64,000 bases of DNA, from positions 22,878,001-22,942,000 of the forward strand of contig NC_073401.1 of NCBI RefSeq assembly GCF_028641065.1, in the 5' to 3' direction. Of this stretch, positions 1,166-63,884 are shown piece by piece. How positions within the stretch are numbered: the stretch's first letter is position 1; every line of letters begins with the position of its first letter. Origin of the DNA: Leucoraja erinacea (taxonomy: Eukaryota). Position numbers and translations under genes: made by a program. The notes under the pieces are model-generated. The model saw only the letters and a list, made by a program, of their open reading frames with translations, searched no databases and was not told the DNA's origin.

Positions 1166-1255
1166 GAGAGTCGGGGCTTGGGAAGTCTACTTTAGTCAAG
1201 AGCCTCTTCTTCCTTACAGATCTTTACAAAGACAGGAAGCTTCTCAATGCTGAAG
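1166..1255 (+). CDS. SEPTIN5: Septin-5 exon (P-loop; [30 protein letters not shown])
   Basis: Acceptor tctccccag and donor gtaag; G1 motif. Confidence 0.93.
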
Positions 1256-4200
1256 GTAAGAATCCTTCTCTATTTTGACCAACCACTACACAACCACATA
1301 CCTTGCACCACAAGCCACCTTCACACTCACCCACCATTGACGTTTTGCCTCCTCCATCACCCAACAGAAGTCAAGTGTCCAGCTGTTGGAAAATGTTGCC
1401 ATTCAATTTGCAGGGAAAAGTCACAGTGGTCTAGCAGTTGCTGTTACTCCACAATGCTAAGGTTGCTAATATTATATACTTTTGGTCAACTGGTTTGTGG
1501 TCAGACTTAGTGGCATGCTGCCAATGGATGTTTTTCAAACAAAAGCGTTTAATCTTTGTAATGAAATGTATAATGACATCATTTGATTAGTGCCATTGTT
1601 TTTATCTAATACCTGAGTAAGAACTCCATAATGATGTTGAGTCCTATCCTGAGAAACCTTTCTCCACTCAACGTGTTCTTACACTACTTGTGCCTCAGAT
1701 CCTCATGAACGAGGAACCAATCGAGAGGTTGAATAATAGGAACAAAGACATTGTGAGATCAGACATCTTGTCTTTCTGCATGCGATTGAAACATACTGGG
1801 ATTTAGTTAAAAGTGATGAATTGAGCAAGAAAAAATAATGCAACTGAAATCACATCCACTTGTTTCTAATGCTGAGACATTGTTAGTTATTGCCTATAAC
1901 GCACCATTAAATGTCCGACTGGTCCTCGGCTTAAACTGAACCTCGATTCCATAAGGATAATTCTGCACTGCTAGGAATGTGAAGTTCTTTGCTCTGAAAT
2001 AGTAACCATTTCATGCATATCCCCATACACTGCCTGCCAATCTGATTGATACGAAAAACTGTAGTAACTTAGCGGGTCAGACAGAATCTCTGGAGAAAAG
2101 TAATGGGTGACATTTTGGGTCTCGACCCGAAACGTCACCTATTCCTTTTCTCCAGAGATGCTGCCTGTCCTGCTGAGTTATTCCAGTTTTTTTGTCTATC
2201 TTTGGTTGAAACCAGCATCTGCAGTTCCTTCCTACACAATCTGAATGATACACTGTGATGTGTATCATTCTCAGCTAAATTGGATGAAAACTCTTGAAAA
2301 CTGGTTAGGGGAAAGATAATTTTTTCTTGATAATAAAAAACGTGCATTATTAATGGGAGTCCTTGTGGTCACATAAATGCAATCAATGGCTGTCGGCACT
2401 TATGGGAACCCAGCAATGCTAACCAATCACAATGACAAAGATAGATGAGACTATTAAAATCAATATTGATCAAATATTTTTTTCTGATGACTTCTCTGAT
2501 GGTGAGAGTGCAGTAATAAAAATAGAAAATACTGAAATTGGTCAGCTGATCATGTAGCAACTATTGGAAGAGAAACATTTCAAGTGCAAGACCTTTCATG
2601 CAATTATTCCACAGATGCTGCAGGACTTGCTTAACATTTCTCTCATTTTCTGTTTTTCTTTCATATTTCTGGCCTCTGCAAATTTTTCCATTCATAATTA
2701 TTATTCCATTCATAATAATAATTTTCAATGGTGTTAATGACGATCACAAACTAATCAGATATCTTTGATTCCTCAAAATTGGACAATGCATTAATCAGTC
2801 AGTGGATGAGCAGGATGATTGCAATATATTATTTACATTTGCCCTCACATTTTCCTCATCTTTACTTCACAGAGAGGATCAATCAAACAGTGGAGATTTT
2901 AAAACACACAGTGGACATTGAAGAGAAAGGTGTTAAATTAAAGTTGACGATAGTTGATACGCCTGGATTTGGCGATGCAGTCAACAACATACAAAGGTAC
3001 GTTTTTGTGATGCCAATGGTGATTTCCTTACAAAAGCGACAGGCATGTGGAACTGTTTCCAAGGAACAGGATGATAGAAGGTTTCAAAACTCAGAATGGT
3101 GGATATTATTTTCCTCAAGCATGGATTTAAAGGGTAATATATCCAAGCTGGGTTAAGATAATTAATCTTCCATGAACCATCTGAATAATATAGAAACATA
3201 GATACATAGAAACATAGAAAATAGGTGCAGGAGTAGGCAATTCGGCCCTTCGAGCCTGCACTGCCATTTAATATGATCATGGCTGATCATCCAACTCGGT
3301 ATCCTGTACCTGCCTTCTCTCCATACCCCCTGATCCCTTTAGCCACAAGGGCCACATCTAACTCCCTCTTAAATATAGCCAATGAACTGGCCTCAACTAC
3401 CTTCTGTGGCAGAGAATTCCACAGATTCACCACTCTCCGTGTGAAATTTATTTTTCTCATCTCGGTCCTAAAAGACTTCCCCCTTATCCTTAAACTGTGG
3501 CCTCTTGTTCTGGACTTCCCCAACATCGGGAATAATCTTCCTGTATCTAGCCCGCCCAACCCCTTAAGAATTTTGTAAGTTTCTATAAGATCCCCCCTCA
3601 ATCTTCTAAATTCTAGCGAGTACAAGCCGAGTCTATCCAGTCTTTCTTCATATGAAAGTCCTGACATCCCAGGAATCAGTCTGGTGAACCTTCTCTGTAC
3701 TCCCTCGATGGCAAGAATATGCAAGGTGCAACCAGCTGAATAGCCCACATCTGAACATCTGTAAGTGAATATTACACAGTTGGATTCAGGTCATTTGTTC
3801 CAAAATGTTTGCATCAATGTTTAAGCTGTATCGCAGCATAAACCTTAATTCATCATCGTGCCTTATCTTTGTATCATATTGGCCTGGAGGTTTTTGGTCG
3901 TAACAATGGAAAATCACCAACAGTTGCCGACATTACTCTGAGGAACTGAGATCGCTGTTGAATGCACAATTTAGGATGACAGTACCAGCGTACTTCCCTC
4001 AGAGTGTTTGCAGTCATGAATACTGGAGTCAAGGGAAGTGACTGAAACTGGTGTGATGGTAAGCTGTCTACAAACAAGATCATCATGATTATGGGGAAAG
4101 GTTAGAACAATGGCATCAACCATGAATGGCAGAGCAGGTAGAAGAGGCTGAGCTGCCTACTCCTGTTTCCCCTTCTTATAGGTCTTTAGGTCTAAACATA

Positions 4201-7200
4201 ACCTAAAATGTTATGCAGTTGTTCCTTGATACCTGTGAGTATTGAATGCTTTACTAACCAGCATGGTATGCAGATGTATTAATGGCCCCTGTGGGCGCTG
4301 ATGAATTTCTCTATCGTATTTATTGTTCTTAACAATACTAAAGTCTATATTTACCAGGCCTCTATATTAAAGTCAGTATTTCTACGAATATTGCCATGCA
4401 GTTATACATCAATCAACCTATATTTAAATGTCCTTTCAGTATCAGAGCAGTGAAATGTGTTTGTTTTGTTTGCCCAGACCAAGTCAACACTTAAACCTGT
4501 GCCTTCCTAAACAAACCAAGAGGGAATCTCACTGACTCTATTCTGATTTGCTGACATTTGCGAGCCAACGTTCCTTTAAAAGAGATCTCTTTCATTTCTC
4601 TTCTCCTTTTTTTTGTGGCAGCTGGAAGCCTATAGCGGACTATATTGACCAACAGTTCGAGCAGTATTTCCGTGATGAGAGTGGCCTAAATCGCAAGAAC
4701 ATTCAGGATAACCGTATCCACTGCTGCTTGTATTTTATCTCTCCCTATGGACACGGGTAAGAGCGAATGCAATTGATAGAGATTGAAGTAATCAGGAAGG
4801 AAATGACTTTCTGCAGTGTACTTGGGTTAGTTTCCCGCACTAAATGCGATCAAGGGGCAAGGCAAGTAAAGTTTAATGATGTGTCATCAGCCACATTCAC
4901 AGCCCAATGTGTTGATTGGGAGTGAAGGAGAGCCTCTCTTGAGAATAATGTCACCAGGATTTTATTGAACTTTCTGTATTTGATTTCTTAGTCTCGGGTG
5001 AGTTTATGGTCTGCATTTTGCCTTGCAGAAGAGCTTGTCATTTGTTTTAGAGATGCTCCAGCTATCTGAAGGTATTTTAGGTTGTCTTGTGAGTTATAGA
5101 CAGGCCGGTGTTCTGTAATTAATTTATTATGCTTTACCTTTGAGAGAGAATTGAAAGGGTTTACATATTAGACTGTACTATGGTTGTTTTACAGTGGGTC
5201 CAGTCCTGGGCTAATTGTGTCTGATTGTTCTTTGAGACAATTGTGTAAGACATTGGCAGAGAAATCAGTGGTTCATGCAGTCTCTTGTGGAAGAGACTGC
5301 ACGAGAAGCTAAATCTGCATTTCTTTACATCTTATTACGGGACTTCGAAAAACAGCACTGCTCCTTGTATCATTGGAACCACTATCCACTTGCAGACGGC
5401 CCATGGTTAGCCTTTGAGATTAGATTTGTCCTTCACTGTGATTGTACTTTCTCTGGAGATGCTTGGTCTATGGAGGTGGGGAGGGATAGTCCGCCCACTG
5501 TGAGTGTAATTTATTCCATCTGCTTGGATATAGACTGCGGCCACTGGACACGGAGTTTATGAAAGCGTTACATCAGAAAGTGAACATTGTACCAATAATT
5601 GCAAAAGCTGACTCGCTCACTCCCATCGAGGTGAAGAAACTCAAAGAGAGGGTGAGAAAAATCATTCATAATATAAGTGCCTCAGAGATTAAAAAAGCAG
5701 AACATAAAATTCAGCTGCCACAGGCAAAAAGCACATCCTCCATATTATTGGTGTTATTAATATCCCAGGAAGTATGTCACATTGTCACCAACAAACTGTG
5801 CTATCAACAGCCCATATTGCTAGTCATTCACAAATACCATCTGGTTTGGAATTCCATTACAGCTGCAACATTGACATTTAAAGACAATGTGGAAAATTGC
5901 CCAGATAACTAATTTTAACAAGCTAATTATTGCCCAATCAGTCTTCTCTCAGCGATGCATCATCTGCACAAGATATTCCCCAACATTGTCAAGCGGTAGA
6001 GACAATCCGGGCATTAAACCCAACGCCTGGTCAACCTGGTCAGCGTTTACCAGCATCCACACTTTTTCAGTCTTGCAGCCATTATTTTGCAATCTCAGGT
6101 CCTTTGATGATTCCCCAGCCATTGCCCCATCCTCACTGCTCAGTTCACCAGCTCTGCAACATTTTAAATCCATTTCATAGCTTGCGCTTATAGTTTCACT
6201 GACTGTGAAACATTGTGAAACACAGCACGCTGTGGTCTGTTGGTTCCTAAACCCAAACTCATCCCTACATTTGCTGCCAAGGCCTCCACCCATATAATCA
6301 GTAGGTCAGGCCACATCTGTGGGGAGCAAAATAGAGTTTGACATTAACTGTTTCTCTACCCGCAGATGTGGCCAAACCTGCTGTGTATTTCCAGCATTTA
6401 AAATTTTTTATTTCGGATTTCTAGCATTTCCAATTTTTTTTACATTCTCACACAACCACCCCACATATCATGCTGCAAAAGCCTGGAACTTTTATGTTTC
6501 TCCACCAATTTTCCTAGCTTCATCAATGTCTTCACGAGTTACTCCTTTGTTTGGATTTTTGTCATGTCTGAAGTTCATGGTCTTGTTTGACTATGTCATA
6601 ATCATTGCTGTTCTTGTCAAATTGAATTTCTCAGCCTGGTTTATTAACTGGAACTCTACTCTGCTCTTCCTTGTTCCAATGTAGATAAGAGATGAAATTG
6701 AACAATACGGAATTAAAATATATCAATTTCCTGAATGTGACTCGGATGAAGATGACGAATTTAAAAAGCAAGATAAAGAACTAAAGGTAAATTGAAATTC
6801 AAGGAACGAGAGATTCAAGCAAAATGGTGGAAGTGGTGAATTTAGTTTTTAGAAAGAATCAGACTTTGATACAGCAGCAACAGATACTAGAGAAGGAAAT
6901 GATATGATGAGGACAGCTTCAGTGAAGTAACTCCAACTCTGATGCACTTGTTTCACTATATAACACATCCATGTTGCTATTCACTGGAGTTTTACTGTGT
7001 TCCTACCTGATGCAAATTCTGAGTGGAAACAGCGGGATCGTCCCCCATTCTACCTTCCCAGAGCTGAACAGGACTTTAATCCTGACCATCATTGTATTTG
7101 CCTGGGCTCAGAACACAGACTAATATAATAGACCTGATATAATGCAATGCTCTATATCCATGAGGATCGCAACGTTACGAAGAAGATACAGATTTGTAAA

Positions 7201-10200
7201 AGGATTTGATCTTTATACTTATCTGTTGATAAACTTTGGAATCAATTCTGATTTGATTGTTATTGGGAGAGGTAATATTTTGTGATAGAGTCTATAATTA
7301 TGGCCCAGTGTGCCATTAGAAGCAGGAACATATTCTTATATTAATTCATTGTTTTCTCATAGGAGACATTAGGACAAACCATTCAGTGGGATGAGGCATT
7401 TATTAAACCTGTGTTGGTCTTATTATTAAATATATTTTTCAATGAGATATTCCATTGTCTTTCCTTCACTTTTCATTTTTATTAATCCTCCTTAATATAA
7501 TTTCCTACTTCTGAATGGTTACAGGAAAGCATTCCCTTTGCAGTCATCGGCAGCAACACGGTGGTGGAAGCTCGAGGTCAGAGGGTCCGTGGCCGACTGT
7601 ATCCATGGGGCATTGTAGAAGGTGAGCAAGCTCAGGGAAGGAGGGGAAGGAGAGGCAGCCTAACTTGCCCTGCTCCAGAGAGGCCCTGACATGTGAGCGT
7701 TTTAAATCTTAAAGTAGAGGAGAAAACCCCCCCTTTCTCTTCTTGAATGGAATTTTTTGCAAGCATAACATATTAACAATAGGCTATTATCCAAGTGATA
7801 GATAGCAAAATAACTCAGTGGAAGAATGTAAAATATAGAGCACTTTCTAATTAATCTGACACTATTATACAAAAGGACATTGCCTGATATTAAACTAAGA
7901 TTAATACTTTACAGAATGTCACATTAATCCCCACTCGTGTTACCTTAGCCAAGAGAGTTGTATGGATGGCATCATCAGTTTTGTGCAAAATCGCTAGGAA
8001 ATGGATCAAATCAGCCACAGGAGAATGCAGATGCTGGAATTGTGATCAAAAAACCAAGTGCTGGAAGAACTCAGTGGGTCAGGCAGCATCTGTGAAGGAA
8101 TGGACAGACAGTGTTTTGACACCCTTCTTCAGACTGTTTGCAGTCGGGGAGAGAAAGCTAGAAAAGAGAGGTGAGGGTGGGACAAAGGTGATATGTGGAT
8201 ACAGATGAGGGGGGCTAATTGACAGATGGGTGTAAATGACAAAGACTAGAGGTGAAAAGGATACAAAAAGGTGTCAGATATGGAAAGAAGACAGGAGTGA
8301 AATGTGAAGTCAGAGGGAAGAATTTTGGTGGAAGGGAGCAGGGGGAAGAGAAGGATAGGGAGATAAATAGGAAAATTGGTAGAGGGATGGGAGATAAGCA
8401 CATGGAAGTGGGGATAGGAGCATGGTGACTGGGGTGGTGGGAAGTGGTGTAAATGTATGCAATGTTTTTAAAAAGGGGCATTATTTTTAATTGGTTAATT
8501 CTATATTCAAGCCACTTGTTTGTAAGCTGCCCAGGAGGAATATGATGTGCTTTTCTTCCGGTTTATGTGTGGTCTCACTTTGGCAATAGAGGACAGAAAG
8601 GTCAGCATGGGAATGGGAAGAGGACTTTAATAAATGATTAGCAACCGGGAGCTCCAGCCAGTCTTGGCAGGCAGCGTGCAAGTGTTCAGCAAAATGGTGA
8701 CTTGGTCTCTCCTATGTAAAAAAGACCACATCGAGAGCACAAAATGCATTCTGAATGAGGCGAACTCCCACAAAAGTATTATGTTCGCATCTGTACCATT
8801 CAGAGGCAAAGACTAGATTGATTGGGCTGACTGCTTTGGAGACACTTCGAGAAATTACATGTAGGTGTGTCTGAGGTTGTGCTTGTTTGGATAAAAGTCA
8901 AAGATACAATTTTCAACCTGGGCGTGCTCAATTTAAATCATGCCCAAACTAGCATCCCTTTTGTGAAATGTTTAGTTTTAATTCTCCACTCCCACTAATT
9001 TGTTTATTGCGAAATGCAAAAACTGTCAAGAGCCAATATTCAAGTCAAGTCAAGTCACATTTATTTATATAGCCCATTTTAAAAAACAACTCTCGTTGGC
9101 CAGTGCTTTACATGTGTTATAAGATGCTGGGCAGTGTTTTAAGACCTAATTAGTTATTCTGATTTTTTTACAAAGTATTCCATGACATACTAAAACATGC
9201 CAATAGTATGATTAGATTACGAAAGCTGAAAATGGGCTTACCACACACAAAAGGTATGCTCATTTTTGCACGTGGTTTTAGTGCAACATTTATGATAAAC
9301 TGATTCTAAATGTAATTTGCAATTTCAATGGGCACAGTGGTTAATTAATTAACATTTTAAACAAAAAAAATCATTCATAACGTTTAAATATTTTAGTGTC
9401 ATTGACTCCATATGAACCATTGTTACATTGTTGGATCCCAAGAATGTAAATGTATAAAAAGTAACAGCAGGCCATTTGACTTCTCATGGTACACAAAAAT
9501 GCTTGCTCTGCTATTCAATAAGATTGTGCCAGAAGCATAAATGCTGGTTCTTTAGGGTTTCCTCGAAATGTGCGGACAGTTAGGAGCAACATCTTTATGT
9601 CTGAAATGACAATAACACCATGTAACACTAGGACATCAATAAGATGAAAAGTGCAAAAAGGTCCACCTGAATTTTACTGTCCAAAGTAAAACTCAATTGA
9701 TTGAGGAAAAATAAGTAATTGACAATAGATTTCCTGATTACACATTTTTCAGAGTCAATATTTACCAGCCACTCCTTTACACTGAATTATTTTCACAGAG
9801 CATTTGCCTCGGTGCAGCATTACTGCCTCTGAGACAAAAGTTTCAGCACCACTTGCCCAGTATGGCTGAACCTCCACTTTGCAATATGAGTGAAATATTC
9901 AAGTCCAGTTGGTAGGGCTGGGTGGGGTGGATCTGGTATTGAGTGAGATTTCCTAAAGCTCTCCCCTGAACAGCACAGATGCAAGGAACTGCAGTTTTTC
10001 GGTTTTACAAAAAAACACAAAGTACTGGAGTAACTCAGCAGGTCAGGCGGCATCTCTGGAAGACATGGTGACGTTAGGTGACGTTTTGGGTCAGGGAACC
10101 TTCCTCAGACGTCATCTGACACTTCGTCATTGCAGTCAATAAATAACTAGCCTGAAGAATTGTTTCTTGATTATATTTCATTACAGTGGAGAACCAGGCA

Positions 10201-12171
10201 CACTGTGATTTTGTAAAACTGCGGAACATGCTGATCCGAACACACATGCAGGACCTGAAGGATGTTACCTGGGACATTCACTATGAGAACTTCAGAGCTC
10301 GGTGCATTCAGGAAATGACAAGGTTGGTTTTCTTTCTGCCCATCATTCACCCTCCCATCAGAGCAATGTTGAAACTGAATTTATCGTCAGCCAATTCCAC
10401 CTATTGTTTATTGCATTCATGATTTATCATGGATGCTGAATTAGGTTGACCTTTAGGTTTATTATTGTCATGTGTACTGATACGTTGAAAAGCTTTCATT
10501 TTGCATACTATAAAATAAGATAATATTAGACATAAATACAAGCAAGCCAAACTCAAGTGCAATAGTTAGAGTGAAGGGAAAGATGAAAAATGCAGGATAC
10601 AGTTCTCAGCATTATAGTGCAAGAACCACAGGATTGTCGGAATCATTTGGTTCATGCCTCATGCAAAGAAAAAAACATGCGGTCCTCTCTCAAAAATAGC
10701 TCTTTTAGGGTAGAATTTCCATGGAAGTTCTTATCAGTGAATTATACCATTTCCTTGAATTTTCACCACTCCTTTTCTGAGGACTCCTTGCAAGAATTGC
10801 TCTGCTAAAATTCATGGCTTTTCCAGACAAATTACAATGGTTCAATGAGTGGTCCTCAAATTCTCAAGGGTTTCCCACAAGTACTCTACGAGACACTGGT
10901 GAGGTTTTCGTGGAGGTATAGGGGATCGACACCAACCACCATGCTAAATTGTGGCCATTTTCTCGTTGGGGAGTTTCACTCAGTTCATGTTATCGTCATG
11001 TTTGGAAGTGTAGAATCGGAAGATCAGAAATTATTTTATTATTCCCAGTGTGACATTATAAAATTGCAAAGCCAGCTGAAAAAAAGCCACTGACTTTTCC
11101 ATTCTTTAATTTACACAGTAAATTGACCCAGGACAACCGAGCAGAAAGTCCGCTCCCCATACTCCCAGTGCCAACTCCGGATGCAGAGACAGAGAAACTG
11201 ATCAAAATGAAAGATGAAGAGGTGAGTGGCTGAAGTGTGAAGAGAGATGAGTGTCTGAGGTGTGAAATCCACATCATGTAACTGAATAGTCTGTGACAAT
11301 CTTGAGTCTGTTACTGGTGGCCAAATTCACCGAAAATATTTAATCCACATTTGTGATTTTACTGTTTAATTTTGGTTTGCTGTTCATTTTTTAATTGTTT
11401 TGAGACTTGACAGGAAGTAATCATTTGCAAATTAATCAAGATGAGATTTTGCCATGATTAGCTTGAATATGGAATCGCCAACAGTGGGCAGAGCCAGTTA
11501 AATAAAATTGGTGTTGCAATGTTGTTCTTTCCCAGCAATTAATTCATTCCCTGTGCTCCTGAGTAGTGACTGCTTATCTGGCTATAAATAATCTACAATT
11601 TCGAATTTCAGCCAGATATTAAACTGGATTTGCAAATGTATTGCCCAACATAGGAACCACTCAAATTGGTTTCCCATTGAATCATCAGAAGGTAAAACTG
11701 GACAGATGAAAGTAAACAAGGCCTATCCACACAAGAATTTGGAAACTTGGATTGTAACTTGAATATTAGCCTTTGGTCTCTGATTTGACCAGGGAATCAA
11801 GTTGTTATTAAGTAATCTCCTTATCATAGATGTTGAGGTAATTTCTTATGTTATCTGCCAGTTCTCAGTGTATTTGAATATAATTTAATTTCACATAGTA
11901 TTCAATTTATGCAAACTCAGCTGTTTGCATTTTTCATTATCTGAATAATATGAATGTTCCCAAGCGTTTTAGACACTCATAATCCTAGTATAAGGGATGC
12001 GTGGTTGTTGAACCAGTGTGTATTGTTCAATGATGGAAAAACCACTGCTGCTGCCTGTTGCTAGTGTGTATCAGTACGCAATAGAGCTCAGTAATTACAC
12101 CTTCCTTTCTGCAGCTCCGGCGAATGCAGGAAATGTTGCAACGAATGCAACAGCAAATGCAAGATCAGTGA
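1166..12171 (+). CDS. SEPTIN5: Septin-5, 5'-partial. Coding exons 1166-1255, 2873-2996, 4622-4756, 5534-5651, 6685-6786, 7525-7621, 10187-10322, 11119-11221, 12115-12171 (stop TGA); upstream exons lie before the window
   Basis: Introns are GT-AG and exon phases are consistent (1/1/2/2/0/0/1/2/0). The spliced product has the P-loop GESGLGKS, G3 DTPG, G4 AKAD and the septin unique element ([16 protein letters not shown]). The C-terminus [52 protein letters not shown] is typical of SEPT5, and GP1BB lies downstream as in other vertebrates. Confidence 0.96.
2873..2996 (+). CDS. SEPTIN5: Septin-5 exon ([41 protein letters not shown])
   Basis: Acceptor cttcacag and donor gtacg; G3 motif. Confidence 0.95.
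3190..3717 (-). mobile_element. CR1/HER1-like LINE 3' fragment
   Basis: ORF 3287-3748 carries the CR1 C-terminal motif [39 protein letters not shown]; (TTCTATGT)n tail. Confidence 0.9.
4622..4756 (+). CDS. SEPTIN5: Septin-5 exon ([45 protein letters not shown])
   Basis: Acceptor ggcag and donor gtaag. Confidence 0.95.
5534..5651 (+). CDS. SEPTIN5: Septin-5 exon ([39 protein letters not shown])
   Basis: Acceptor atag and donor gtgag; G4 AKAD. Confidence 0.95.
6685..6786 (+). CDS. SEPTIN5: Septin-5 exon ([34 protein letters not shown])
   Basis: Acceptor gtag and donor gtaaa; not in the ORF track, translated by hand. Confidence 0.94.
7525..7621 (+). CDS. SEPTIN5: Septin-5 exon ([32 protein letters not shown])
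   Basis: Acceptor ttacag and donor gtgag; translated by hand. Confidence 0.95.
8010..8770 (-). mobile_element. Penelope-like element remnant (GIY-YIG endonuclease C-terminus plus terminal repeat)
   Basis: ORF 8487-8681 reads [35 protein letters not shown], the PLE endonuclease tail. It is followed on the - strand by a terminal segment with a decayed CTGAAGAAGGG motif. Confidence 0.75.
10187..10322 (+). CDS. SEPTIN5: Septin-5 exon ([45 protein letters not shown])
   Basis: Acceptor ttacag and donor gttgg; septin unique element. Confidence 0.95.
11119..11221 (+). CDS. SEPTIN5: Septin-5 exon ([34 protein letters not shown])
   Basis: Acceptor acacag and donor gtgag. Confidence 0.93.
12115..12171 (+). 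CDS. SEPTIN5: Septin-5 last coding exon ([18 protein letters not shown])
   Basis: Acceptor ctttctgcag; TGA at 12169-12171. Confidence 0.94.
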   Translation, partial: LRRMQEMLQRMQQQMQDQ

Positions 12172-23624: not shown

Positions 23625-24182
23625 ATGATGAGACGGCGAGAAACGCTCCTTGTATTTCTTTCCCTGCTTCGGGTGGCGGTGTTCGAGTGTCCAGAAGCGT
23701 GCAGCTGCACAGGGACCTCTGTGGACTGCAGCGGCCAGGAGCTGAATGTCAGCACCATTCCCAGGCGCTTTGGGAACACCATCACCGAAATCAGGCTGAG
23801 CAACAACAAACTCTCTGCCATCCCCAACGGGCTCTTCGACACCATGTATCACCTGAGGTCTGTGGCTTTGGACAATAACCCGTGGACATGCGATTGCAAC
23901 ATTTTATACCTGAGATCTTGGCTTCTTAAACAAGAAGACCGATCCCCGTATAAGCACCTGTCGTGCTCCTCGCCCGCGGAGCTCCAGAGCAGGCGGATAC
24001 TGTATCTAACCGAGGATGAAGTGGTCGCTACGTGTGACGACTGGTACTGTCCCGTTGTCCTGATCTGTCAGATTGGACTGGTCGTCTTCATCGCCATCCA
24101 GGCTATTCTTCTGATATTCGTTATAAGGTTTTTGAGGAGATTTGAGGCTCTTTCCGAAGAGGCCATTCGGTCATCAAAGTAA
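23625..24182 (+). CDS. GP1BB: Platelet/thrombocyte glycoprotein Ib beta chain (185 aa)
   Basis: Signal peptide, LRRNT (CPEACSC..VDC), one LRR (EIRLSNNKLSAIPNGLFD), LRRCT (NPWTCDCNILYLRSWL..C..P), juxtamembrane Cys (WYC), TM helix and basic RRF. It lies directly downstream of SEPT5 on the same strand. A strong acceptor (ccgcag, 23614-23615) just before the ATG implies an upstream first exon. Confidence 0.9.
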   Translation: MMRRRETLLVFLSLLRVAVFECPEACSCTGTSVDCSGQELNVSTIPRRFGNTITEIRLSNNKLSAIPNGLFDTMYHLRSVALDNNPWTCDCNILYLRSWLLKQEDRSPYKHLSCSSPAELQSRRILYLTEDEVVATCDDWYCPVVLICQIGLVVFIAIQAILLIFVIRFLRRFEALSEEAIRSSK

Positions 24183-24359
24183 ATCCGTCTTCACTCGGAC
24201 TACCATCCACTAAATAGCCAATTGAAAATCATTTATCCGATCAGCACTCTTGACCGAACACCCGCGGTTTCCCTCAATGAGTTCTTGTTAGTGCCGGAAA
24301 AAAAAAGCCCCTTGTTTTAAATGCGCCGACGCTGGAATTCTGCGTTGCTGTTCTTTATA

Positions 24360-24625
24360 CTTTAGACTTTAGAGATTCAGCGCGGAAACAGGCCCTACCG
24401 CTCACGAGTCCGCACCGACTAACGACCACCCCCCGCACACTAGTTATATCCTACACACTAGAGGAACAATTTACAATTTTGCCCAAGCCAATTAACCTGC
24501 AAACCTGCACGTCTTTGGCGTGTGGGAGAAAACCGTAGCACCCGGACAAACCCCACGCGGTCACAGGGGGAACGTACAGACAGCATCGATCTCTGGCGCA
24601 GCAACTATCACGGTGCCATTGTGCC
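24360..24625 (-). mobile_element. HE1-like SINE
   Basis: Similarity to the other copies in the window. Confidence 0.7.
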
Positions 24626-24987
24626 GCCTTTCACCTCCTCCGATCGCTTCAAATTTTGTCAACTCCCTAATCTCCTTCACTCCACAATTGCATCATCCGT
24701 TTACTCCCCTGCAACATATTCTATACATTCTATACCCATAATATAAATATTTTAAACCCATTACCAATCTATTGACTCTCCTGCGATGAACACATCCCCT
24801 AAAATCTCCCGTGAATTAAAATGTATTACTACAGTGCCACACCATTGCCCATTAGTCATGTCTATAGACGTTCTTATATACGTTTCCTCTTTCGTTGTGA
24901 TGTATTGGGTTTCCTACTTTAATACCAGCAGCAAACATTGTCTTCTCTCATCCAAACAATTCGCTTCTGTGACGAATAGTTATTTAA

Positions 24988-25213
24988 TGCCCCTGTCCCA
25001 CTTAGGAAACCTGAACAGAAACCTCTGGATACCTTGCGCCCCACCCAAGGTTTCCGTGCGGTTCCCGGAGGTTTTTGTCAGTCTCCCTACCTGCTTCCAC
25101 TAGCTGCAACCTCCGGCAACCACCTGCAACCTCCGTTAACTGCACGGAAACCATGGGTGGGGCGCAAAGTCTCCAGAGGTTTCCGTTCAGGTTTCCTAAG
25201 TGTGACAGGGGCA
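24988..25213. mobile_element. PIF/Harbinger-type MITE
   Basis: Long near-perfect TIRs (TGCCCCTGTCCCACTTAGGAAACCTGAAC...) and a TAA target duplication (24985-24987 and 25214-25216); truncated copy at about 53461-53551. Confidence 0.85.
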
Positions 25214-26357
25214 TAACACGGTTCAAATACAGACTATTAAGAAATAGCATGAGTCTCATCCTGCTTCTATTGCCCACTATCTTGAACCTTGACTCTCTTC
25301 TCGGTTGTTCGTATGTTAAGGCTCGCTGAGAATTATGTGTGTCATCCACGAGTAAATAATAGGGAACGACCATAACTTCATCCTCTAACTTGTTGGATCA
25401 GGTACCCAAAGATACCTGAACAACTTTATGCAGTCCCACTGACATGGCCCTGAGACATCGCTGTAACCGATTGCTTTTTTTTTTACACCACAACAAAAGT
25501 GAAACCTGGGAGGGAAAATAATTCCTAATCTATTCCCATTGAAGGTTGGAAGTTAAAGTCAAAAGCACCCCAATCTTCGACACCCAATACAACAAGCAGA
25601 CACAAGAAGCATTCCGCTCAAGCATTTACTTTCCTCATTATACATTGTATTTTATTGTATTGTATTCAAATTTATTGACATATCTTCACCCGAGAGTAAA
25701 ACTATCAGTTGGCCAGTTCTTGCAGGCTGACATTGCAGGGTTTGATTTGCTGTAAGCAATCCTGACATCGCGATATGCTATTTGAGTTACAGACATCCAA
25801 TGTAGAAAAATTGTACACGATTTTGTTCAAGCAGACATGTTAAAGTAATATTAAATAAAATATTAAATATTTAAATATTAATTAAATATTAATATTAAAT
25901 TAAACACTCTTCAATCTGTGGAAACTACAAATCAACAGATCTGTACATGTTACAACAAACCGATGGCGTTTTTGTATGATTTGGATTTGGATTAAATGTT
26001 ATGGATTTAAAATGATAAATCTATGTCTTTATCGCGTCGGTGCAATTGGCTTATTTGTTGAATACTGTCAACATTATCCGATTGTGTTTCATGTTTCCAC
26101 TTGCACAGGTTTTGTATTATACAAAGGAACAAATAGATACCATAGCAGAATCAAATGTAATATGGAAGGAGGAGTTTCCTGGGAATCATAAATACGGTTC
26201 TTGAACTGATAGGTGGAATGGGCAAAACACGAAGTTCTGGAGTAACTCGGTAACTCAGAGTATTCATCTCTTTTATTATTTTTTATTTTATTTATCATCG
26301 TTGAAAACATTAGCAACACAGTGGGTGCTGGTTTCCGACTGGAACGGTGACGGACGC

Positions 26358-27365
26358 ACCGCACATCTCTGTCCTCCAGCTCCTGCAGACTTCCGCCGCC
26401 GGAAGTAGAGGATTTTGGTGTGTGTGTGCTTTATCATCATTCCTTACACTGCTATGTCCGACAGTGATCGCAACTTCTACTGAAGTGTGGATGGCCGTTG
26501 GCTCACTAGAAACTCATCCCCCCTTTGACCGGTCTTGTTTTTGGTCCAGCTGGGGGTCCACCCCCCCCCCCCCACCCCCCTCCCCTCCCCGCCTCACAAA
26601 CCAGGTGGGGGAGACGATTTAGTCGCCGACTCTCCGACCAAGGAGCAGATAGCACGGGATTACATGGTACCCGTGGCGGGGGAACTCCGCCCGACCTGAC
26701 CTAATCTCTGAAGGACATGAATAGGCAAGGTTTCGGGTCTGGAAGACTGACAATGGCGAGAGGCCTTTGATGTGACAGATGGATGCAGATGGAACAGCTT
26801 TGACTGGTAGATGGCCCGTGATATCACTGGCACTGGACAGTGGTTTAAAAACAGTGACAATGGGTGTAAGGTAAGTGGAGAAGAATAGTGAAATGTGAAG
26901 CCAGAGGTAGAGATGTCGTTGAAAGGAGACGGAGGAAGGGGAGCAGAATGTAGAAAAAATAAAACGTAGAATGGGCTGAAAATGCAATGTAATTGCATGG
27001 AACGTTTATATCTGGTATGATATATACATGCCTAATATGAGAAAGAAAATCTGTAAATAGCCATTTGAATTGAATGTTGTAATATGTCCACTATTTATGA
27101 TCAACCCAAAATATTGGTTTTCTTAATTTCATGAGAAATATCGAATAGTTTGCATTCTGGTAAATACCGCACATCTCTGTCCTCCAGTTCCTGCAGACTT
27201 CCGCCGCCGGAAGTATAGGGTTTTGGTGTGTGTGTGCTTTATCATCATTCCTTACACTGCTATGTCCGACAGTAATCGCAACTTCTACTGAAGTGTGGAT
27301 GGCCGTTGGCTCACTAGAATCTCATCCCCCCTTTGACCGGTCTTGTTTTTGGTCCAGCTGGGTCC

Positions 27366-27396
<31 letters not shown>

Positions 27397-28033
27397 ACCT
27401 CACAAACCAGGTGGGGGAGACGATTTAGTCGCCGACTCTCCGACCAAGGAGTAGATAGCACAGGATTACATGGTACCCGTGGCGGGGGAACTCCGCCCGA
27501 CCTAACCTAATCTCTGAAGGACATGAATAGGCAAGGTTTCGGGTCTGGACCTTTCTTCAGACTGACTGGTGGGGGGCGGAGATAATGGAAAATGTGGTGT
27601 GTGGGGGTGGGGGTGGGCCGGCGAGCGGCCTTTGATGTGACAGATGGATGCAGATGGAACAGCTTTGACTGGTAGATGGCCCGTGATATCACTGGCACTG
27701 GACAGTGGTTTAAAAAAAGTGACAATGGGTGTAAGGTAAGTGGAGAAGAATAGTGAAATGGGAAGCCAGAGGTAGAGATGTAGTTGAAAGGAGACGGAGG
27801 AAGGGGAGCAGAATGTAGAGAAAATAAAACGTAGAATGGGCTGAAAATGCCATGTAATTGCATGGAACGTTTATATCTGGTATGATATATACATGCCTAA
27901 TATGAGAAAGAAAGTCTGTAAATAGCCATTTGAATTGAATTTTGTAATATGTCCACTATTTATGATCAACCCAAAATATTGGTTTTCTTCATTTCATGAG
28001 AAATATCGAATAGTTTACATTCTGGTAAATACC
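26358..28033 (+). repeat. Tandem duplication of about 0.8 kb (26358-27168 and 27166-28033)
   Basis: Near-identical copies, ACC microhomology at the junction, one indel of roughly 55-60 bp. Confidence 0.9.
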
Positions 28034-29101
28034 TAAGGATCGCGTAATGTCGAAGGTAACAACAGCTGAATAAAAATCCACAATCTGAATATCTACACAT
28101 TCCTGTTCAGATGACGCCAATTTTGTCAAAGGACACAATGTGCTGGAGTAACTCACCGGGTCAGGCAACATCTCTAGAGAACATGAATAGGTGACGTAGT
28201 GGGGATGGGGGAGCGGGGTGGGGGGGTTGTAGAGAAAGCTGGGAGACAGGAGAGGCAGGACAACGCGTGGCAAGTGACTGGTGGACACACGAGGGAGTCT
28301 TTGGTCGGCAGATGTTTGGAATAAAGGTCAGAGATTATTGTGAAGCCAGAGGAAGGAATGTAGAGGAGGAGGGGAGAAAGATGTGGAGGAAGAGGAGAGA
28401 AATGGGCGTTCGTCCAGCTGAGGCACAGGGATAGCGCGGTGTGGGGGAGTGGGAGTGTTAATTAATTCTCCAATTTTAGATAACCTCTAACACCCCTCCC
28501 CTCATACGTTCTGCCCCTCCCCCGTTTCGCCCTCTCCCCTCCCCTGTACGTCACCTGGACTCGCGCCTATTAACCTCCATCATCTGCCTGTCAAAATCCA
28601 CCCTAGTTTGTGTGCATCCGGCACATCCCACGCTCTGTCTATCTCCCCTCTCTCCCAGCCCCCGCACCCCAACTACAAGAAGTCTGAAGAAGGCTCCCGA
28701 CCCGAAGCGTCGCCTATCTATGTTCTCCAGAAATGCTGTCTGACCTACTGATTTACTCCAGTACTGTGTGTACTTTTGTGTAAACCGGCATCTGTAGTTT
28801 CTTCATTTATTGATTAATTGGGGTTAAAAGGATTAATGAGATGTCCGAATGCAAAAGTGTTCTGGGCTCATGAGAGAAAAAATACATAGTTCAGGATGAG
28901 GATTCCTTGTCCAATAAATATGCACAGAAGCTGAAACGTAGGGCGAGGAGCTTGACAAACTGGAGGGACCGAGGTGCAGGCGCAGCGGTAGAAAGTGATG
29001 TTTCGCTGAATACAGACCACGCAGTGTCAACGAGGAGGATATCGGGGAAAGGAAGAGTGAGGTTGGAGCTGGTGTGAGGTGCTGGATCACAATGCGCTAA
29101 T

Positions 29102-29169
<68 letters not shown>

Positions 29170-29563
29170 CAGTATGGTCCTGAAAAAAAACTTTTCCACC
29201 CAGAGAGTTGTGAATTGATGGAATTCCCTGCCACAGAGGGAAGTGGAGGCCAAGTCACTGGATGGATTTAAGAGAGAGTTAGATAGAGCTCTAGGGGCTA
29301 GTGGAGTCAAGGGATCTGGGGAGAAGGCAGGCACGGCTTATTGATTGGGGACGATCAGCCATGATCACAATGAATGGCGGTACTGGCTCGAAGGGCCGAA
29401 TGGCCTCATCCTGCACTTATTTTCTGTTTCTATGGAGTTGGGAGTGCAGACGTCAGATGATAGCGGACAGAGGGAGAGAGAGACGGGCATGTGTTGGGCC
29501 TGGGAATTGGTTATAGGTTCACAGGAGGATGGCAATCAGCAGGGGTAGGAGACCTGAGCGTGT

Positions 29564-29599
<36 letters not shown>

Positions 29600-30365
29600 G
29601 GCGGTGGCGGTGGGTGGGACGTCCAATGTCAGGAGCCTGTAGTCACCTTTAGTGGAAGCCAGGAAAATGAAGAGTCATTAGTGAATAAGGCAGAAAACGA
29701 AATCTGTGTATGGAAGGGGAAATTAACGCAAGCCAACAAACAGCATTACGCAGATAATAACACTGTGAATACGCAGGGAACCTCCGTAAGGAAAGGCGCT
29801 TCATGGACTGTACGTGTCTGATTTCTTCCTAGGAGCCTCGAAACTCGCTCCCCCCCCCCCCCCCCCCCCCCCCCCCCCACCCCCGGCTCCTGATACATGC
29901 TCACAGAGCCTCCTCTCCCCCCCCCCCCCCCCCCGGTTCAATCTGCCCATCTTCCCTCCATTATCTGGCTACATCTTAATTTGCCTTTATTCTCTGCATG
30001 AATTTCTCAGCCACGTGTCCTGGTTCTAGTGACAATTATCATATTTCCACGATATGAAATGAACCGGGCTCAATTTTAAACACACTTTGCCCGACTTATC
30101 ACTCACCAGCATCGTAAACATTTATATGAATTCAATTTTGTCAGAGATATTAAAAAATACAGGAGAAATATGGACCCGGTGATAATAGAAGTTTTATTAC
30201 GTTGCGACAAAGATACATTGATGGTTTTAACTTCTGAATGAATCCACTGTGAGAATCGTACAACTGTTTTAATTGAAACTGTATTAGACAAAACTTTGTG
30301 TAATTGTCTAAGTACGATGATACACATTTCTAAGGAAGCAAAACAGAATACACAAACTGCTTGGA

Positions 30366-30688
30366 TTACATGCAGCTGGATCGCGCGATGTTTGTCTGCA
30401 GCGGGCCTGTCCGAGCCTCGTGTTTAACCACACAGGAGTAAAGCTCGTGTGATTTCCAGACTGTGACTGGCAGAGTCAGGTAACTGCTCGCACTGAACGT
30501 GTTGTCCTTCTCCTGCTGGATCCGGCTGGTCTCAACGCCGTCACTTCTCGCCCTGCCGTCCACCTTCCACTCAATGTCCACAACGCCCGGATTAAACCCG
30601 CTCACCAAACACACCAGGGTGGCGCTGCTCCTTCCCAAGATTTCGGCCTCCGAAGGTGGGAGGACGGACACCGCTGGGGATCGCGGAG
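30366..30688 (-). CDS. IgL cluster 1 constant exon (C1-set)
   Basis: 323-nt exon, acceptor ttttcag, penultimate interchain Cys (SSCM); AATAAA on the - strand at 30193-30198. Confidence 0.96.
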
Positions 30689-33600: not shown

Positions 33601-34146
33601 TAAAAAAACAAGAAATAAAAGCTGGTGATTGACATAGGACGGGTTGCATTCTGTTAATACTTACTGCCCAGATTCAGTTTGGTTCCCGTCCCGAAGATAT
33701 ATCGACTACCGGTCCACATAAAGCAGTGATAATCAGCGGCGTCCGTTGATTGAAGGTTGGTGATGGTTAAATGCATTTGGTTACTCGACGAGTCACTGGT
33801 ACCGGTAAATCGATCAGGTATTCCGGAAGCTCTGGTGCTGCCATACCACACCAAGACTGGAGTGTTGTCGTGTTTCTGCCAGTACCAGCTCGGATAGGAT
33901 AAAGTGCCTTCTGACAGGGTGCAGATGATTCTGACGGTGTGCCCCGGGGATGCTGAGATAGACGGGAACTGGGTAACTATCACCTCCGCGCTTGTGGCTG
34001 TCGGAAATACCAAATGAATTAAATGCTCAGAGCTCTTCGAAACATTTATGCAATGTAAGAATATACAACAAAATTAAGAATTGCGTGTTTTACTCACTGC
34101 GAAGAAATAACACCAGTACGGTCAGTCCCCGAATCCATTCAGCCAT
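30366..34146 (-). CDS. Ig light chain cluster 1 (type II/lambda-like), complete: leader 34146-34098, germline-joined VJ 33997-33665, C 30688-30366
   Basis: Phase-1 GT-AG introns give one open frame: MAEWIRGLTVLVLFLRTTSA-EVIVTQ..C..SWYWQK..GIPDRF..DYHC-FMWTGSRYI-FGTGTKLNLG-TPRSPAVSVLPPS..ATLVCLV..SSYLTL..YSCVVKHE..RSSCM*. Confidence 0.93.
33098..33405 (-). mobile_element. HE1-like SINE in the J-C intron of cluster 1
   Basis: Similarity to the other copies. Confidence 0.7.
33665..33997 (-). CDS. IgL cluster 1 germline-joined V-J exon
   Basis: V-set Cys/Trp/Cys continuous with the J motif FGTGTKL; no RSS between V and J; donor gtaag. Confidence 0.95.
34098..34146 (-). CDS. IgL cluster 1 leader exon (MAEWIRGLTVLVLFLR)
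   Basis: 49-nt exon with Kozak-like gccATGG and donor gtgag; homologous to the cluster 2 leader. Confidence 0.88.
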
Positions 34147-43412: not shown

Positions 43413-43735
43413 TCAAGCACAACCAGATCTGGCGATGTTTGTCTCCAGTGGGTTTGTCTGAGTCTCGTGTTTAACCACACAGGAGTAAAGCTCGTGTGAG
43501 TTCCAGTAGGCGGCTGGCAGAGTCAGGTAACTGCTGGTACTGAACGTGTTGTCCTGATCCTGCTGGGTTCGGCCTGTGTCGACGCCATCACTTCTCGCAC
43601 TGCCGTCCACCGTCCACTCAATGTCCACAACGCCCGGGTTGAACCCGTTCACCAAACAAACCAGAGTGGCGGTGCCCTTTCCCGCGATTTCTTCCTCTGA
43701 AGGCCGAAGGACTGACACCGCGGGGGGCTGGGGAT
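43413..43735 (-). CDS. IgL cluster 2 constant exon
   Basis: 323-nt exon, acceptor ttttccag; AATAAA on the - strand at 43371-43376. Confidence 0.96.
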
Positions 43736-46700: not shown

Positions 46701-47324
46701 TATATTCACAAAGCAAATTGCGGGTTTGTTTTATTCGCTTCCGTATTATTGCAAGAATTGGAGGTTGAACGTTTTGAAAATCGGTTAAAATTGAAAGCTG
46801 GTGATTAGTCAAAAGCCGTTTTTCAGATAGCCATTATTTTACTTACTGCTCAGATTCAGCTTGGTTCCTTTCCCGAATGTAATTACAGATGTTGCTACTG
46901 CACAGTAATAATCAGCGACATCCTCAGCTCGCACGTTGGTGATGGTCAGGTGCATTATATTGTTCGGATCATCCACGGTACCGGTGAATCGATCTGGAAT
47001 TCCAGAAGCTCTGGTGCTCTCATACCACACAAGGACCGGTGCGCTGCCGGTCTTTTGCCAATACCAGCTAGTGACGTAGCTGCGCATCTGGGCTCCTGAG
47101 AGGGTACAAGTCATCTTGACCGTTTTCCCCAGAGAAGTCGAGATGGACGTAGGGTCCTGAGTCAACAAAATCTCTGCGATTGAAGCTGGTGAAATAACAA
47201 ATTAATATTTGTAAACATACAATCTATCAGCAGAATGCAAAGAGCAGCTGCCTGGTGATTAGGTTTTCTACTTACTATGGAAGCAGAACACGAACGCGGC
47301 CAAAACTCGAATCCATTCAGACAT
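43413..47324 (-). CDS. Ig light chain cluster 2 (type II/lambda-like), complete: leader 47324-47276, germline-joined VJ 47185-46847, C 43735-43413
   Basis: Open spliced frame MSEWIRVLAAFVFCFHTSIA-EILLTQDP..C..SWYWQK..DYYC-AVATSVIT-FGKGTKLNLS-NPQPPAVSVLRPS..ATLVCLV..YSCVVKHE..RSGCA*. Confidence 0.93.
43993..44226. mobile_element. Palindromic non-autonomous Penelope-derived element with a 14-bp target-site duplication
   Basis: Inverted arms at about 43993-44089 and 44098-44193, flanked by CAGAATATCTTTCA at 43979-43992 and 44227-44240; many related copies in the window. Confidence 0.75.
44094..44135 (+). ncRNA. Minimal type I hammerhead ribozyme motif (Penelope-associated)
   Basis: CTGAAGA-A-GGGT CTCG AACC-GAAA-C-GTC; intact catalytic core with a palindromic loopless stem III (ACGT). 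Confidence 0.55.
46847..47185 (-). CDS. IgL cluster 2 germline-joined V-J exon
   Basis: V-set domain continuous with FGKGTKL; acceptor ttcaccag and donor gtaag. Confidence 0.95.
47276..47324 (-). CDS. IgL cluster 2 leader exon (MSEWIRVLAAFVFCFH)
   Basis: 49-nt exon, accATG, donor gtaag. Confidence 0.88.
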
Positions 47325-63141: not shown

Positions 63142-63175
<34 letters not shown>

Positions 63176-63561
63176 ATGTGCAACTTCCCTTCAGCTGTCC
63201 TAACACATGGATCACCATCAATCATGAAAATGCAGTTTACTTGAAATATTACGAAGTTTCACAAAATACCAGTTTATACACACTGGCATCATCGGACATT
63301 ATTGTTTTTATTCTATTGAAGGCAAGGACATTTGCACAGAAAATTACAACGATGCATCGTAAGTAGAATAATCTGTTTTATTGCATTAAATGTTACATTA
63401 TTGTTTGTCAATTCACCGTAAATTACGGACAGCGCATTCACGGCAACAAAATGCACACGTGCTGCGTTCGAACAACTACCCTGTTAAAGCGAACATTCGA
63501 TATCTGAATATTGGATTAATTTACAACGAAATGGAGCAAATCGGGAAATTGATCCTTTGAA

Positions 63562-63884
63562 TTAGAGGCAACTGGATCTGGCGATGTTGGCCTTAATCGG
63601 GGTTGCCTGGGTTTCGTGTTTAACCACACAGGAGTAAAGATCGTGTGAGTTCCAGTAGGCGGCTGGCAGAGTCAGGTAACTGCTCGCACTGAACGAGTTG
63701 TCCTTCTCCTGCTGGACCCGGCTGGTCGCAGCGCCGTCACTTCTCGCACTGCCGTCCACGGTCCACTTAATGTCCACAGCGCCCGGGTTGAATCCGCTCA
63801 CCAAACACACCAGGGTGGCGGTATTTTTTGCGGTGACTTCACCCATTGATGGCGCCAGAATGGAAACGGTGGGGGAGCGCGGAC
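63562..63884 (-). CDS. IgL cluster 3 constant exon (its L and VJ lie beyond the window end)
   Basis: 323-nt open exon (PRSPTVSILAPSMGEVTAKNTATLVCLV..RSSCL*), acceptor tttccag; AATAAA on the - strand at 63377-63382. Confidence 0.95.

What the first reader, a model, noticed from the sequence alone, without database searches (positions are those of the whole stretch)
1166..63884. Cluster-type Ig lambda-like locus directly abuts the SEPT5-GP1BB pair (compact 22q11-like linkage)
Seen: SEPT5 and GP1BB on +, then IgL clusters on -, with the first C exon only about 6.2 kb from the GP1BB stop and no recognisable gene in between. Established: human SEPT5-GP1BB and IGL are both in 22q11.2 but megabases apart, and TBX1 follows GP1BB there. 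Inference: this is positional support that chondrichthyan type II light chains are orthologous to tetrapod lambda, and it marks one physical end of the IgL array. The adjacency may be ancestral or may come from a lineage-specific rearrangement.
Basis: partly seen in the sequence, partly recalled or inferred. Interest (0 to 1): 0.7.

Follow-up and report, generated by a model that had tools for sequence, protein, structure and literature searches.

The report
Split skate antibody lambda gene locus
In this skate the pre-assembled lambda-type antibody light-chain genes form two facing arrays on either side of a 415-kb block of ordinary genes ending in SEPT5-GP1BB, an arrangement likely shared with sharks, and the neighbours of the other array are the genes that flank the lambda locus in land vertebrates, which supports a common origin.

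Summary
The adjacency is real: GP1BB stops at 24182, the first light-chain C exon ends at 30366, and no gene or N lies between. The clusters are germline-joined type II (lambda) genes, not kappa, sigma or sigma-2. But this is not the end of the array. The contig holds 19 clusters: 14 to the left and 5 to the right of a 415-kb block (HIRA, MRPL40, FKBP-like, UFD1, CDC45, CLDN5, SEPT2-like, SEPT5, GP1BB). GNAZ, TOP3B, PPM1F, MAPK1, YPEL1 and PPIL2 precede the left array, so it lies between the published tetrapod lambda markers (GNAZ; HIRA/MRPL40). That is the real positional support; my trees could not choose between lambda and kappa. TBX1 is 7.3 Mb away. Accession order in bamboo shark and thorny skate repeats left array, GP1BB, right array, so the layout is probably elasmobranch-wide. 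The two arrays carry separate ancient V lineages, yet their C exons are as alike across the block as within an array, suggesting exchange. Type II = lambda is already accepted; I found the synteny and split layout in none of 8 paper searches. The scan noted a HIRA-adjacent shark lambda gene before, on other DNA.

The parts
1166..12171 (+). SEPT5-type septin, last 9 exons (1166-1255, 2873-2996, 4622-4756, 5534-5651, 6685-6786, 7525-7621, 10187-10322, 11119-11221, 12115-12171); earlier exons lie left of the window
   Evidence: Open spliced frame with canonical sites; septin by PDB search (no SEPT5 row listed there); the name SEPT5 rests on position between CLDN5 and GP1BB and on a recalled C-terminal sequence
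23625..24182 (+). GP1BB coding exon, 185 aa
   Evidence: 24 hits, 22 named platelet glycoprotein Ib beta or carrying that name in the source column; best named 79-80% identity; LRRNT
24183..30365 (.). 6183-bp gene-free spacer, repeat-rich, with tandem duplication 26358-27168 / 27166-28033
   Evidence: unique parts recovered as single-copy-depth contigs in 4 of 4 runs
30366..30688 (-). C exon of right-array cluster R1 (type II/lambda)
   Evidence: 69-71% identical to sandbar shark lambda chains; closest other C in the genome is L14 across the block, 79% aa and 87.6% nt
33665..33997 (-). Germline-joined VJ exon of R1, open frame, no RSS
   Evidence: a spliced leader-VJ-C protein 99% identical in C is in the protein collection (P0002)
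34098..34146 (-). Leader exon of R1; octamer ATTTGCAT at 34277-34284
43413..43735 (-). C exon of cluster R2
46847..47185 (-). Germline-joined VJ exon of R2, open frame, no RSS
   Evidence: groups with a sawfish V at 98/96
47276..47324 (-). Leader exon of R2; octamer at 47447-47454
63562..63884 (-). C exon of cluster R3; its VJ lies just right of the window (G000:C25:22943247-22943591)

Best explanation
The window shows the inner edge of the right arm of a two-part, germline-joined type II (lambda) light-chain locus: 14 clusters and 5 clusters face each other across a 415-kb block that ends in SEPT5-GP1BB, a layout likely already present in the shark-ray ancestor. Shown: cluster counts, orientation, fused VJ without RSS, and the gene order GNAZ - TOP3B - PPM1F - MAPK1 - YPEL1 - PPIL2 - 2 HES-like - left array - HIRA - MRPL40 - FKBP-like - UFD1 - CDC45 - CLDN5 - SEPT2-like - SEPT5 - GP1BB - right array - lone IgV receptor gene - RPLP0 - PXN, with TBX1-GNB1L 7.3 Mb further on. 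Inferred: the left arm holds the position orthologous to tetrapod lambda (between GNAZ and HIRA/MRPL40); the right arm is an old second array at the point where the human-type GP1BB-TBX1 contact is absent; each cluster is expressed as a ready-made leader-VJ-C unit without RAG joining; the two arms keep separate V lineages while C exons are exchanged between the inverted arms by gene conversion or C replacement.
For: Layout: 19 of 83 C-domain matches and 19 of 47 V-domain matches in G000 lie on C25 at 22.298-22.493 Mb (14) and 22.908-22.987 Mb (5); all other matches are at most 43% (C) or 44% (V) identical. 12 of 14 left clusters are +, 5 of 5 right clusters are -. No N between 22,464,475 and 22,934,759. 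0 of 19 VJ exons have an RSS-like match; 17 of 19 VJ frames are intact (L13 has a stop, R4 a J frameshift). Neighbours: HIRA and a type IA topoisomerase by family search; claudin, UFD1, CDC45, MRPL40, septin, cyclophilin, L10, paxillin/LIM, HLH/orange, TPR by Pfam (36 of 66 candidate exons hit a family); PP2C, kinase, Yippee (6 of 9 hit); Gz alpha best PDB match; TBX1 best PDB match at 30.25 Mb. Published tetrapod lambda markers are GNAZ/RTDR1 on one side and HIRA/MRPL40 on the other (PMC4762898 passages); TOP3B, PPM1F, MAPK1, YPEL1, PPIL2, HIRA, ESS2 are in the lambda-region synteny list of PMC9614664 (section 11 part 1). Chiloscyllium punctatum: left-type chain GCC28643, GP1BB GCC28657, right-type chains GCC28658 and GCC28659; Amblyraja radiata: left-type XP_032899439, GP1BB XP_032899462, right-type XP_032899465/467. 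V tree: left clade 99/95, right clade 99/99, each with sharks and rays, the right one including Callorhinchus. C exchange: four-fold sites differ at 257 of 396 (0.65) in left-vs-right V but 177 of 612 (0.29) in left-vs-right C, equal to within-array C (124 of 423; 35 of 119); left-vs-right C identity within a genus exceeds same-class identity across the shark/ray divide in 16 of 17 genera.
Against: Order in other species is read from accession numbers, not coordinates; the 13 models between GCC28643 and GCC28657 were not seen, and RefSeq numbering is not strictly positional (in Hemiscyllium left-type chains XP_060700057/058 come 7-8 numbers after GP1BB XP_060700050, and no right-type chain was among its 6 rows; in Pristis the numbers are hundreds apart). 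No contig spans the 6.2-kb spacer. Trees do not unite type II with tetrapod lambda: best VJC tree joins lambda with kappa at 80/82; type II + lambda p-AU 0.108, type II + kappa 0.075, type II + sigma/sigma-2 0.138, none rejected. Kappa, sigma and several lambda reference rows are unnamed proteins that I labelled by inspection. Mobula is the 1 of 17 genera without the C signal, and it is slight in rays generally. Synonymous comparison used skate DNA only, 8 of 19 clusters, 21-50 sites per pair. RTDR1/RSPH14 and C22orf39 were not located. Three 100-N gaps inside the arrays make 14 and 5 lower bounds. Expression of single clusters was not measured.
Confidence: 0.8

Rival explanations
1. The GP1BB-IgL contact is a recent skate-lineage rearrangement or transposition of a few clusters and carries no deep history.
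For: Human-type GP1BB-TBX1 contact (gene table of PMC4487986) is absent here, so a rearrangement happened in some lineage; the spacer is repeat-rich; R3-R5 are recent copies, C 94-98% identical.
Against: Consecutive accessions GP1BB, IgL, IgL in bamboo shark with right-type V, and a left-type V 14 numbers earlier; catshark scaffold with 3 of 3 right-type chains while a left-type chain is on another scaffold; right V clade includes sharks and Callorhinchus.
Confidence: 0.07
2. The adjacency is an assembly misjoin at repeats between 24.2 and 30.4 kb.
For: No contig of 7 laid runs spans the spacer; all break at repeats.
Against: No N in the spacer or the whole block; unique spacer pieces are found at single-copy depth in 4 of 4 runs with four organism labels, one reaching from the spacer into the C exon (X19 record 29917-30474); independent assemblies of two other species give the same order by accession.
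Confidence: 0.03
3. The layout is real and old, but C exons are alike across the arms because of slow evolution and shared selection (pairing with heavy-chain CH1), not exchange; the V lineages simply diverged earlier and faster.
For: C domains are constrained; in rays the within-genus excess is small (0.70 vs 0.67 in this genome; reversed in Mobula).
Against: The signal is at four-fold degenerate sites: R1 C differs from L07, L12, L14 C at 0.17-0.20, below the 0.33-0.45 between V L06 and other left V, a split that the V tree places before the shark-ray divergence. In sharks left-vs-right C identity is 0.75-0.92 against 0.64-0.73 across superorders, and left and right C of one species pair in the C tree (97/80, 98/91, 93/81).
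Confidence: 0.1

Closest known systems
Cartilaginous-fish Ig lambda light chain (type II; nurse shark NS3; sandbar shark lambda)
   Same: Leader-VJ-C miniclusters, all germline-joined, as reviewed in PMC5192425 (passages); C 69-71% identical to named sandbar shark lambda chains; one clade at 100/100; little skate type II is listed as lambda in Table 2 of PMC5985310 (section 29).
   Different: [quoted passage not shown]
Tetrapod Ig lambda locus (human IGL at 22q11.2, Xenopus type III, chicken IgL)
   Same: Same marker genes: GNAZ on one side, HIRA/MRPL40 on the other (PMC4762898), plus TOP3B, PPM1F, MAPK1, YPEL1, PPIL2, ESS2 nearby (PMC9614664 list). With 12 of 14 left clusters on +, HIRA/MRPL40 are downstream and GNAZ upstream, the polarity that paper gives for Xenopus.
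   Different: Tetrapod lambda rearranges through RSS in one V-(J-C)n array; here V and J are fused, clusters are self-contained and a second arm lies beyond GP1BB next to RPLP0-PXN. Sequence trees here do not resolve the orthology.
Human 22q11.21 core block HIRA to GNB1L
   Same: Order HIRA, MRPL40, UFD1, CDC45, CLDN5, SEPT5, GP1BB kept (PMC4487986 table); TBX1 is still followed by a GNB1L-like gene on the opposite strand (name recalled).
   Different: Extra FKBP-like TPR gene and SEPT2-like gene inside the block; GP1BB is followed by the right IgL arm and TBX1 is 7.3 Mb away; C22orf39 not located.

Membership tests
Chondrichthyan type II (lambda/NS3) light chain | V and J joined in the germline, no RSS | tested here: met
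   19 of 19 VJ in one exon, 0 of 19 with RSS-like match; 2 of 19 broken
Chondrichthyan type II (lambda/NS3) light chain | One leader, one VJ, one C per cluster | tested here: met
   Leader, donor and acceptor found for 19 of 19; J-C introns 1.0-3.1 kb
Chondrichthyan type II (lambda/NS3) light chain | Groups with named shark lambda chains, apart from kappa, sigma, sigma-2 | tested here: met
   VJC tree 100/100; C 69-71% to sandbar shark lambda versus 41-43% to this genome's sigma and sigma-2 C
Gnathostome lambda isotype (orthology with tetrapod lambda) | Forms one clade with tetrapod lambda | tested here: inconclusive
   Not recovered in C, V or VJC trees; p-AU 0.108, and alternatives are not rejected either. 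Published trees do group them, with mixed kappa/lambda branching in C (PMC5985310 section 29)
Gnathostome lambda isotype (orthology with tetrapod lambda) | Lies between GNAZ/RTDR1 and HIRA/MRPL40 | tested here: met
   GNAZ 21.45-21.52 Mb, left array 22.30-22.49, HIRA 22.52-22.58, MRPL40 22.586; RTDR1 itself not searched
Gnathostome lambda isotype (orthology with tetrapod lambda) | Lambda-type RSS spacing | not testable with these tools
   RSS were removed by germline joining
Kappa (type III/NS4) | Groups with kappa V and C | tested here: not met
   Kappa-labelled V form their own clade at 100/100 without the window's V; labels by inspection of unnamed rows
Kappa (type III/NS4) | Flanked by RPIA and EIF2AK3 | not tested
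   These genes were not searched; neither was recognised among exon candidates of the 1.37 Mb read
Sigma and sigma-2 (type IV, type I) | Groups with sigma or sigma-2 | tested here: not met
   Sigma-like loci on C29 and sigma-2-like loci on C1206/C1433 form separate clades at 100/98 and 100/99

The most novel reading that the evidence does not exclude
Sharks and rays carry a bipartite lambda locus at least as old as their common ancestor: two inverted arms with two V lineages that predate the chimaera split and differ in promoter (octamer-driven right arm, mostly octamer-less left arm) act as two sub-isotypes that keep a shared C region by recombining across the 415-kb HIRA-GP1BB block; the left arm fixes the ancestral jawed-vertebrate lambda site, and the right arm marks the break that separates GP1BB from TBX1.
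Probability: 0.3. Interest if true: 0.7.

Novelty: new variant of a known kind. Interest (0 to 1): 0.5.

Why it matters
The lambda label of shark and skate type II chains rests on trees that are weak for C domains and were unresolved in my own runs; gene order gives an independent test, and it agrees. The two-arm layout also gives a simple natural experiment: fixed, non-rearranging V lineages separated by ordinary genes, with apparent C exchange and different promoter elements, can be tested for arm-specific expression, hypermutation and allelic exclusion. It also dates a break in the 22q11.2-like HIRA-to-GNB1L block between GP1BB and TBX1. It does not change any accepted classification.

Tried and rejected
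Phylogeny as a test of lambda versus kappa: three trees and four AU tests, unresolved. Spanning the spacer with public data: 7 runs laid, only short contigs, none spanning. First coding-potential scan was GC-driven and uninformative; the splice-site finder replaced it, and its last run near the lone V gene printed nothing because the region masked itself. RefSeq accession order is not a reliable map in Pristis, Heptranchias, Heterodontus or Hemiscyllium. Callorhinchus linkage could not be tested: its GP1BB rows carry no contig. PDB search with the C domain was dominated by multi-domain chains; best single-domain light-chain rows looked lambda-sized but are no test. PD-1 as identity of the lone IgV gene: rejected, since PMC12151841 places shark PD-1 among other genes and its tail motifs differ; the protein atlas did not hold the sequence. 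TBX1 next to GP1BB: rejected. Three key papers (Criscitiello and Flajnik 2007, Das et al. 2008, Flajnik 2024) were not held and are known to me only second-hand. Earlier-finding look-ups by place, by GP1BB words and by GP1BB sequence were empty.
Full report
Setting. The window is G000:C25:22878001-22942000, + strand, on a 33.29-Mb contig of a 2.19-Gb genome. Positions in Mb below are on C25.

Observation. Nine septin exons splice to one open frame ending at 12171; GP1BB runs 23625-24182; C exons lie at 30366-30688, 43413-43735 and 63562-63884 on the - strand, with fused VJ exons at 33665-33997 and 46847-47185. The spacer between the GP1BB stop and the first C stop is 6183 bases, 44% multi-copy, with no N, no Ig fragment and no exon candidate. 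Four of four public runs under four organism labels hold its unique parts at single-copy depth, but no contig of the seven runs laid spans it.

What the clusters are. The C1 exon is 69-71% identical to named sandbar shark lambda chains and 41-43% to this genome's sigma-like (C29) and sigma-2-like (C1206, C1433) C exons. In a 25-row VJC tree the 7 type II rows form a clade at 100/100, apart from kappa-labelled (97/95) and sigma/sigma-2 rows (98/96). None of 19 VJ exons has an RSS-like match; all 19 have a leader, a J donor and a C acceptor; 17 of 19 VJ frames are intact. Germline joining is the known state of this isotype (PMC5192425, passages), and little skate type II is tabulated as lambda (PMC5985310, section 29). 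No kappa-like C was among the 83 matches in G000, in line with 'ND' in that table.

The array does not end here. Whole-genome searches gave 19 C and 19 V of this family on C25: 14 at 22.298-22.493 Mb (12 on +) and 5 at 22.908-22.987 Mb (all on -). The arms face each other across 415 kb that hold no N and no Ig fragment. Three 100-N gaps inside the arms make the counts lower bounds.

Gene order. I read 21.77-23.14 Mb and predicted exons with a splice-site and codon score, then checked chosen candidates against Pfam (36 of 66 hit, 6 of 9; candidates were picked by eye from 219 and about 90 predictions) and PDB. Order: ESS2 21.12, GNAZ 21.45-21.52, TOP3B 21.75-21.77, PPM1F 21.79-21.80, MAPK1 21.88-21.89, YPEL1 21.96-21.98, PPIL2 22.04-22.15, two HES-like genes 22.23 and 22.25, left arm, HIRA 22.52-22.58, MRPL40 22.586, FKBP-like TPR gene 22.61, UFD1 22.62-22.63, CDC45 22.64-22.67, CLDN5 22.69, SEPT2-like 22.72-22.77, SEPT5, GP1BB, right arm, lone IgV receptor gene 23.00, RPLP0 23.02, PXN 23.04-23.14. 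SMARCB1 is at 19.31. TBX1 is at 30.24-30.27 on +, followed by a GNB1L-like gene on -, with no gene recognised in the 110 kb before it. Family-level hits are tool results; the choice of paralogue name (TOP3B, PPM1F, MAPK1, YPEL1, PPIL2, CLDN5, SEPT5, FKBP-like, GNB1L) rests on recalled sequence and on neighbourhood.

Positional argument. PMC4762898 (passages) uses GNAZ/RTDR1 on one side and HIRA/MRPL40 on the other to define the tetrapod lambda locus in human, Xenopus, chicken, mouse, anole and alligator; PMC9614664 (section 11 part 1 and passages) lists TOP3B, PPM1F, MAPK1, YPEL1, PPIL2, HIRA, ESS2 and SMARCB1 in the same region. The skate left arm lies directly between these markers, about 25-30 kb from HIRA. 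It matters because sequence did not settle the question here: type II + tetrapod lambda p-AU 0.108, type II + kappa 0.075, type II + sigma/sigma-2 0.138, and the best tree joins lambda with kappa at 80/82; the C and V trees are also open at that depth. The kappa, sigma and part of the lambda rows are unnamed representatives that I labelled by inspection.

Age of the layout. GP1BB and type II chains share a contig length in 17 of 17 other elasmobranch species where both had a chromosome-scale record; Rhincodon, Rhinoraja, Pristiophorus, Callorhinchus, Squalus, Carcharhinus and Hydrolagus lacked one of the two data and were left out. In Chiloscyllium punctatum GP1BB is GCC28657, right-type chains are GCC28658 and GCC28659 (consecutive locus tags 0007090-91), and a left-type chain is GCC28643. 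In Amblyraja the numbers run left-type 439, GP1BB 462, right-type 465 and 467. In Scyliorhinus torazame 3 of 3 chains on one scaffold are right-type and a left-type chain is on another. Against: numbering is only a proxy; in Hemiscyllium left-type chains follow GP1BB by 7-8 numbers, and in Pristis, Heptranchias and Heterodontus the numbers are hundreds apart. I put the layout in the shark-ray ancestor at about 85%.

Two V lineages, one C pool. Left and right V form clades at 99/95 and 99/99, each with sharks and rays; the right one includes Callorhinchus. Across the shark/ray divide V identity is 0.64 within a class and 0.50 between classes, whereas C identity is 0.69 and 0.70; within a genus left-vs-right C identity exceeds same-class identity across superorders in 16 of 17 genera, strongly in sharks, weakly in rays, reversed in Mobula. 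In skate DNA (8 of 19 clusters) four-fold sites differ at 0.65 in left-vs-right V but 0.29 in left-vs-right C, the same as within arms, and R1 C differs from L07, L12 and L14 C at only 0.17-0.20. Since the arms seem to predate the shark-ray split, the simplest reading is exchange of C exons between the inverted arms. An exact octamer lies within 700 bases upstream of 5 of 5 right and 1 of 14 left VJ exons.

Mechanism, graded. Shown: anatomy, counts, order in this genome. Established knowledge: type II clusters are expressed without rearrangement. Inferred: left arm at the ancestral lambda site; right arm an old second array at the GP1BB|TBX1 break; C exchange. Not resolved: whether bony vertebrates lost a right arm or cartilaginous fish gained it, and which lineage moved TBX1.

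Novelty. The isotype and its lambda label are known. Eight searches showed no paper giving this synteny or the split layout for a cartilaginous fish; (GP1BB, immunoglobulin lambda, synteny) returned none. [quoted passage not shown] The scan's own notes hold several 'ordinary' lambda arrays and one shark lambda pseudogene beside HIRA. Verdict: real, correctly classed, wrongly called an end; moderate interest, 0.5.

Noticed in passing
L045:8407-8850 (+) = G000:C25:23,000,4xx-23,000,8xx; further candidate exons near 23,003,555 and 23,007,110: A lone single-exon V domain with a J-like GxG end lies 13 kb beyond the right arm (Pfam V-set 6e-16; only weak antibody hits in PDB), with a putative transmembrane exon and a tail holding TxYxxI and VxYxxL motifs: a likely inhibitory IgV receptor, not PD-1 by published synteny.
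   Followed up: partly
G000:C25 arrays, 700 bases upstream of each VJ: Exact octamer in 5 of 5 right clusters and only L06 of 14 left clusters.
   Followed up: partly
G000:C25:22,364,074-22,364,241 (+): Decayed C-exon fragment between the two inverted left clusters and L06.
   Followed up: no
G000:C25:22,339,490-22,356,731: Clusters L04 and L05 are inverted relative to the other 12 left clusters, next to a long LINE-like open frame at 22.33 Mb.
   Followed up: no
G000:C25:22,957,070-22,957,402 and 22,472,933-22,473,271: R4 has a frameshift at the V-J junction and L13 an in-frame stop in V.
   Followed up: partly
All 14 left clusters: CDR3 is 8 residues with a Trp at position 3 in 14 of 14 left clusters, against 8-11 residues and varied sequence in the 4 readable right clusters: one old join on the left, several or more diverged joins on the right.
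   Followed up: no
G000:C25:22,719,000-22,774,400 (+): A second septin, closest to SEPT2, lies head-to-tail before SEPT5.
   Followed up: partly
G000:C25:22,226,000-22,255,100: Two convergent HES5-like bHLH-Orange genes between PPIL2 and the left arm; an unidentified coiled-coil-like gene may follow at 22.27-22.29 Mb (no Pfam hit).
   Followed up: no
Proteins P0281, P0296: Two unnamed light chains branch next to but outside the type II clade (92/91); no close C match was seen in G000.
   Followed up: no
window 26358-28033: 870-bp direct duplication at 90% identity in the GP1BB-IgL spacer.
   Followed up: no
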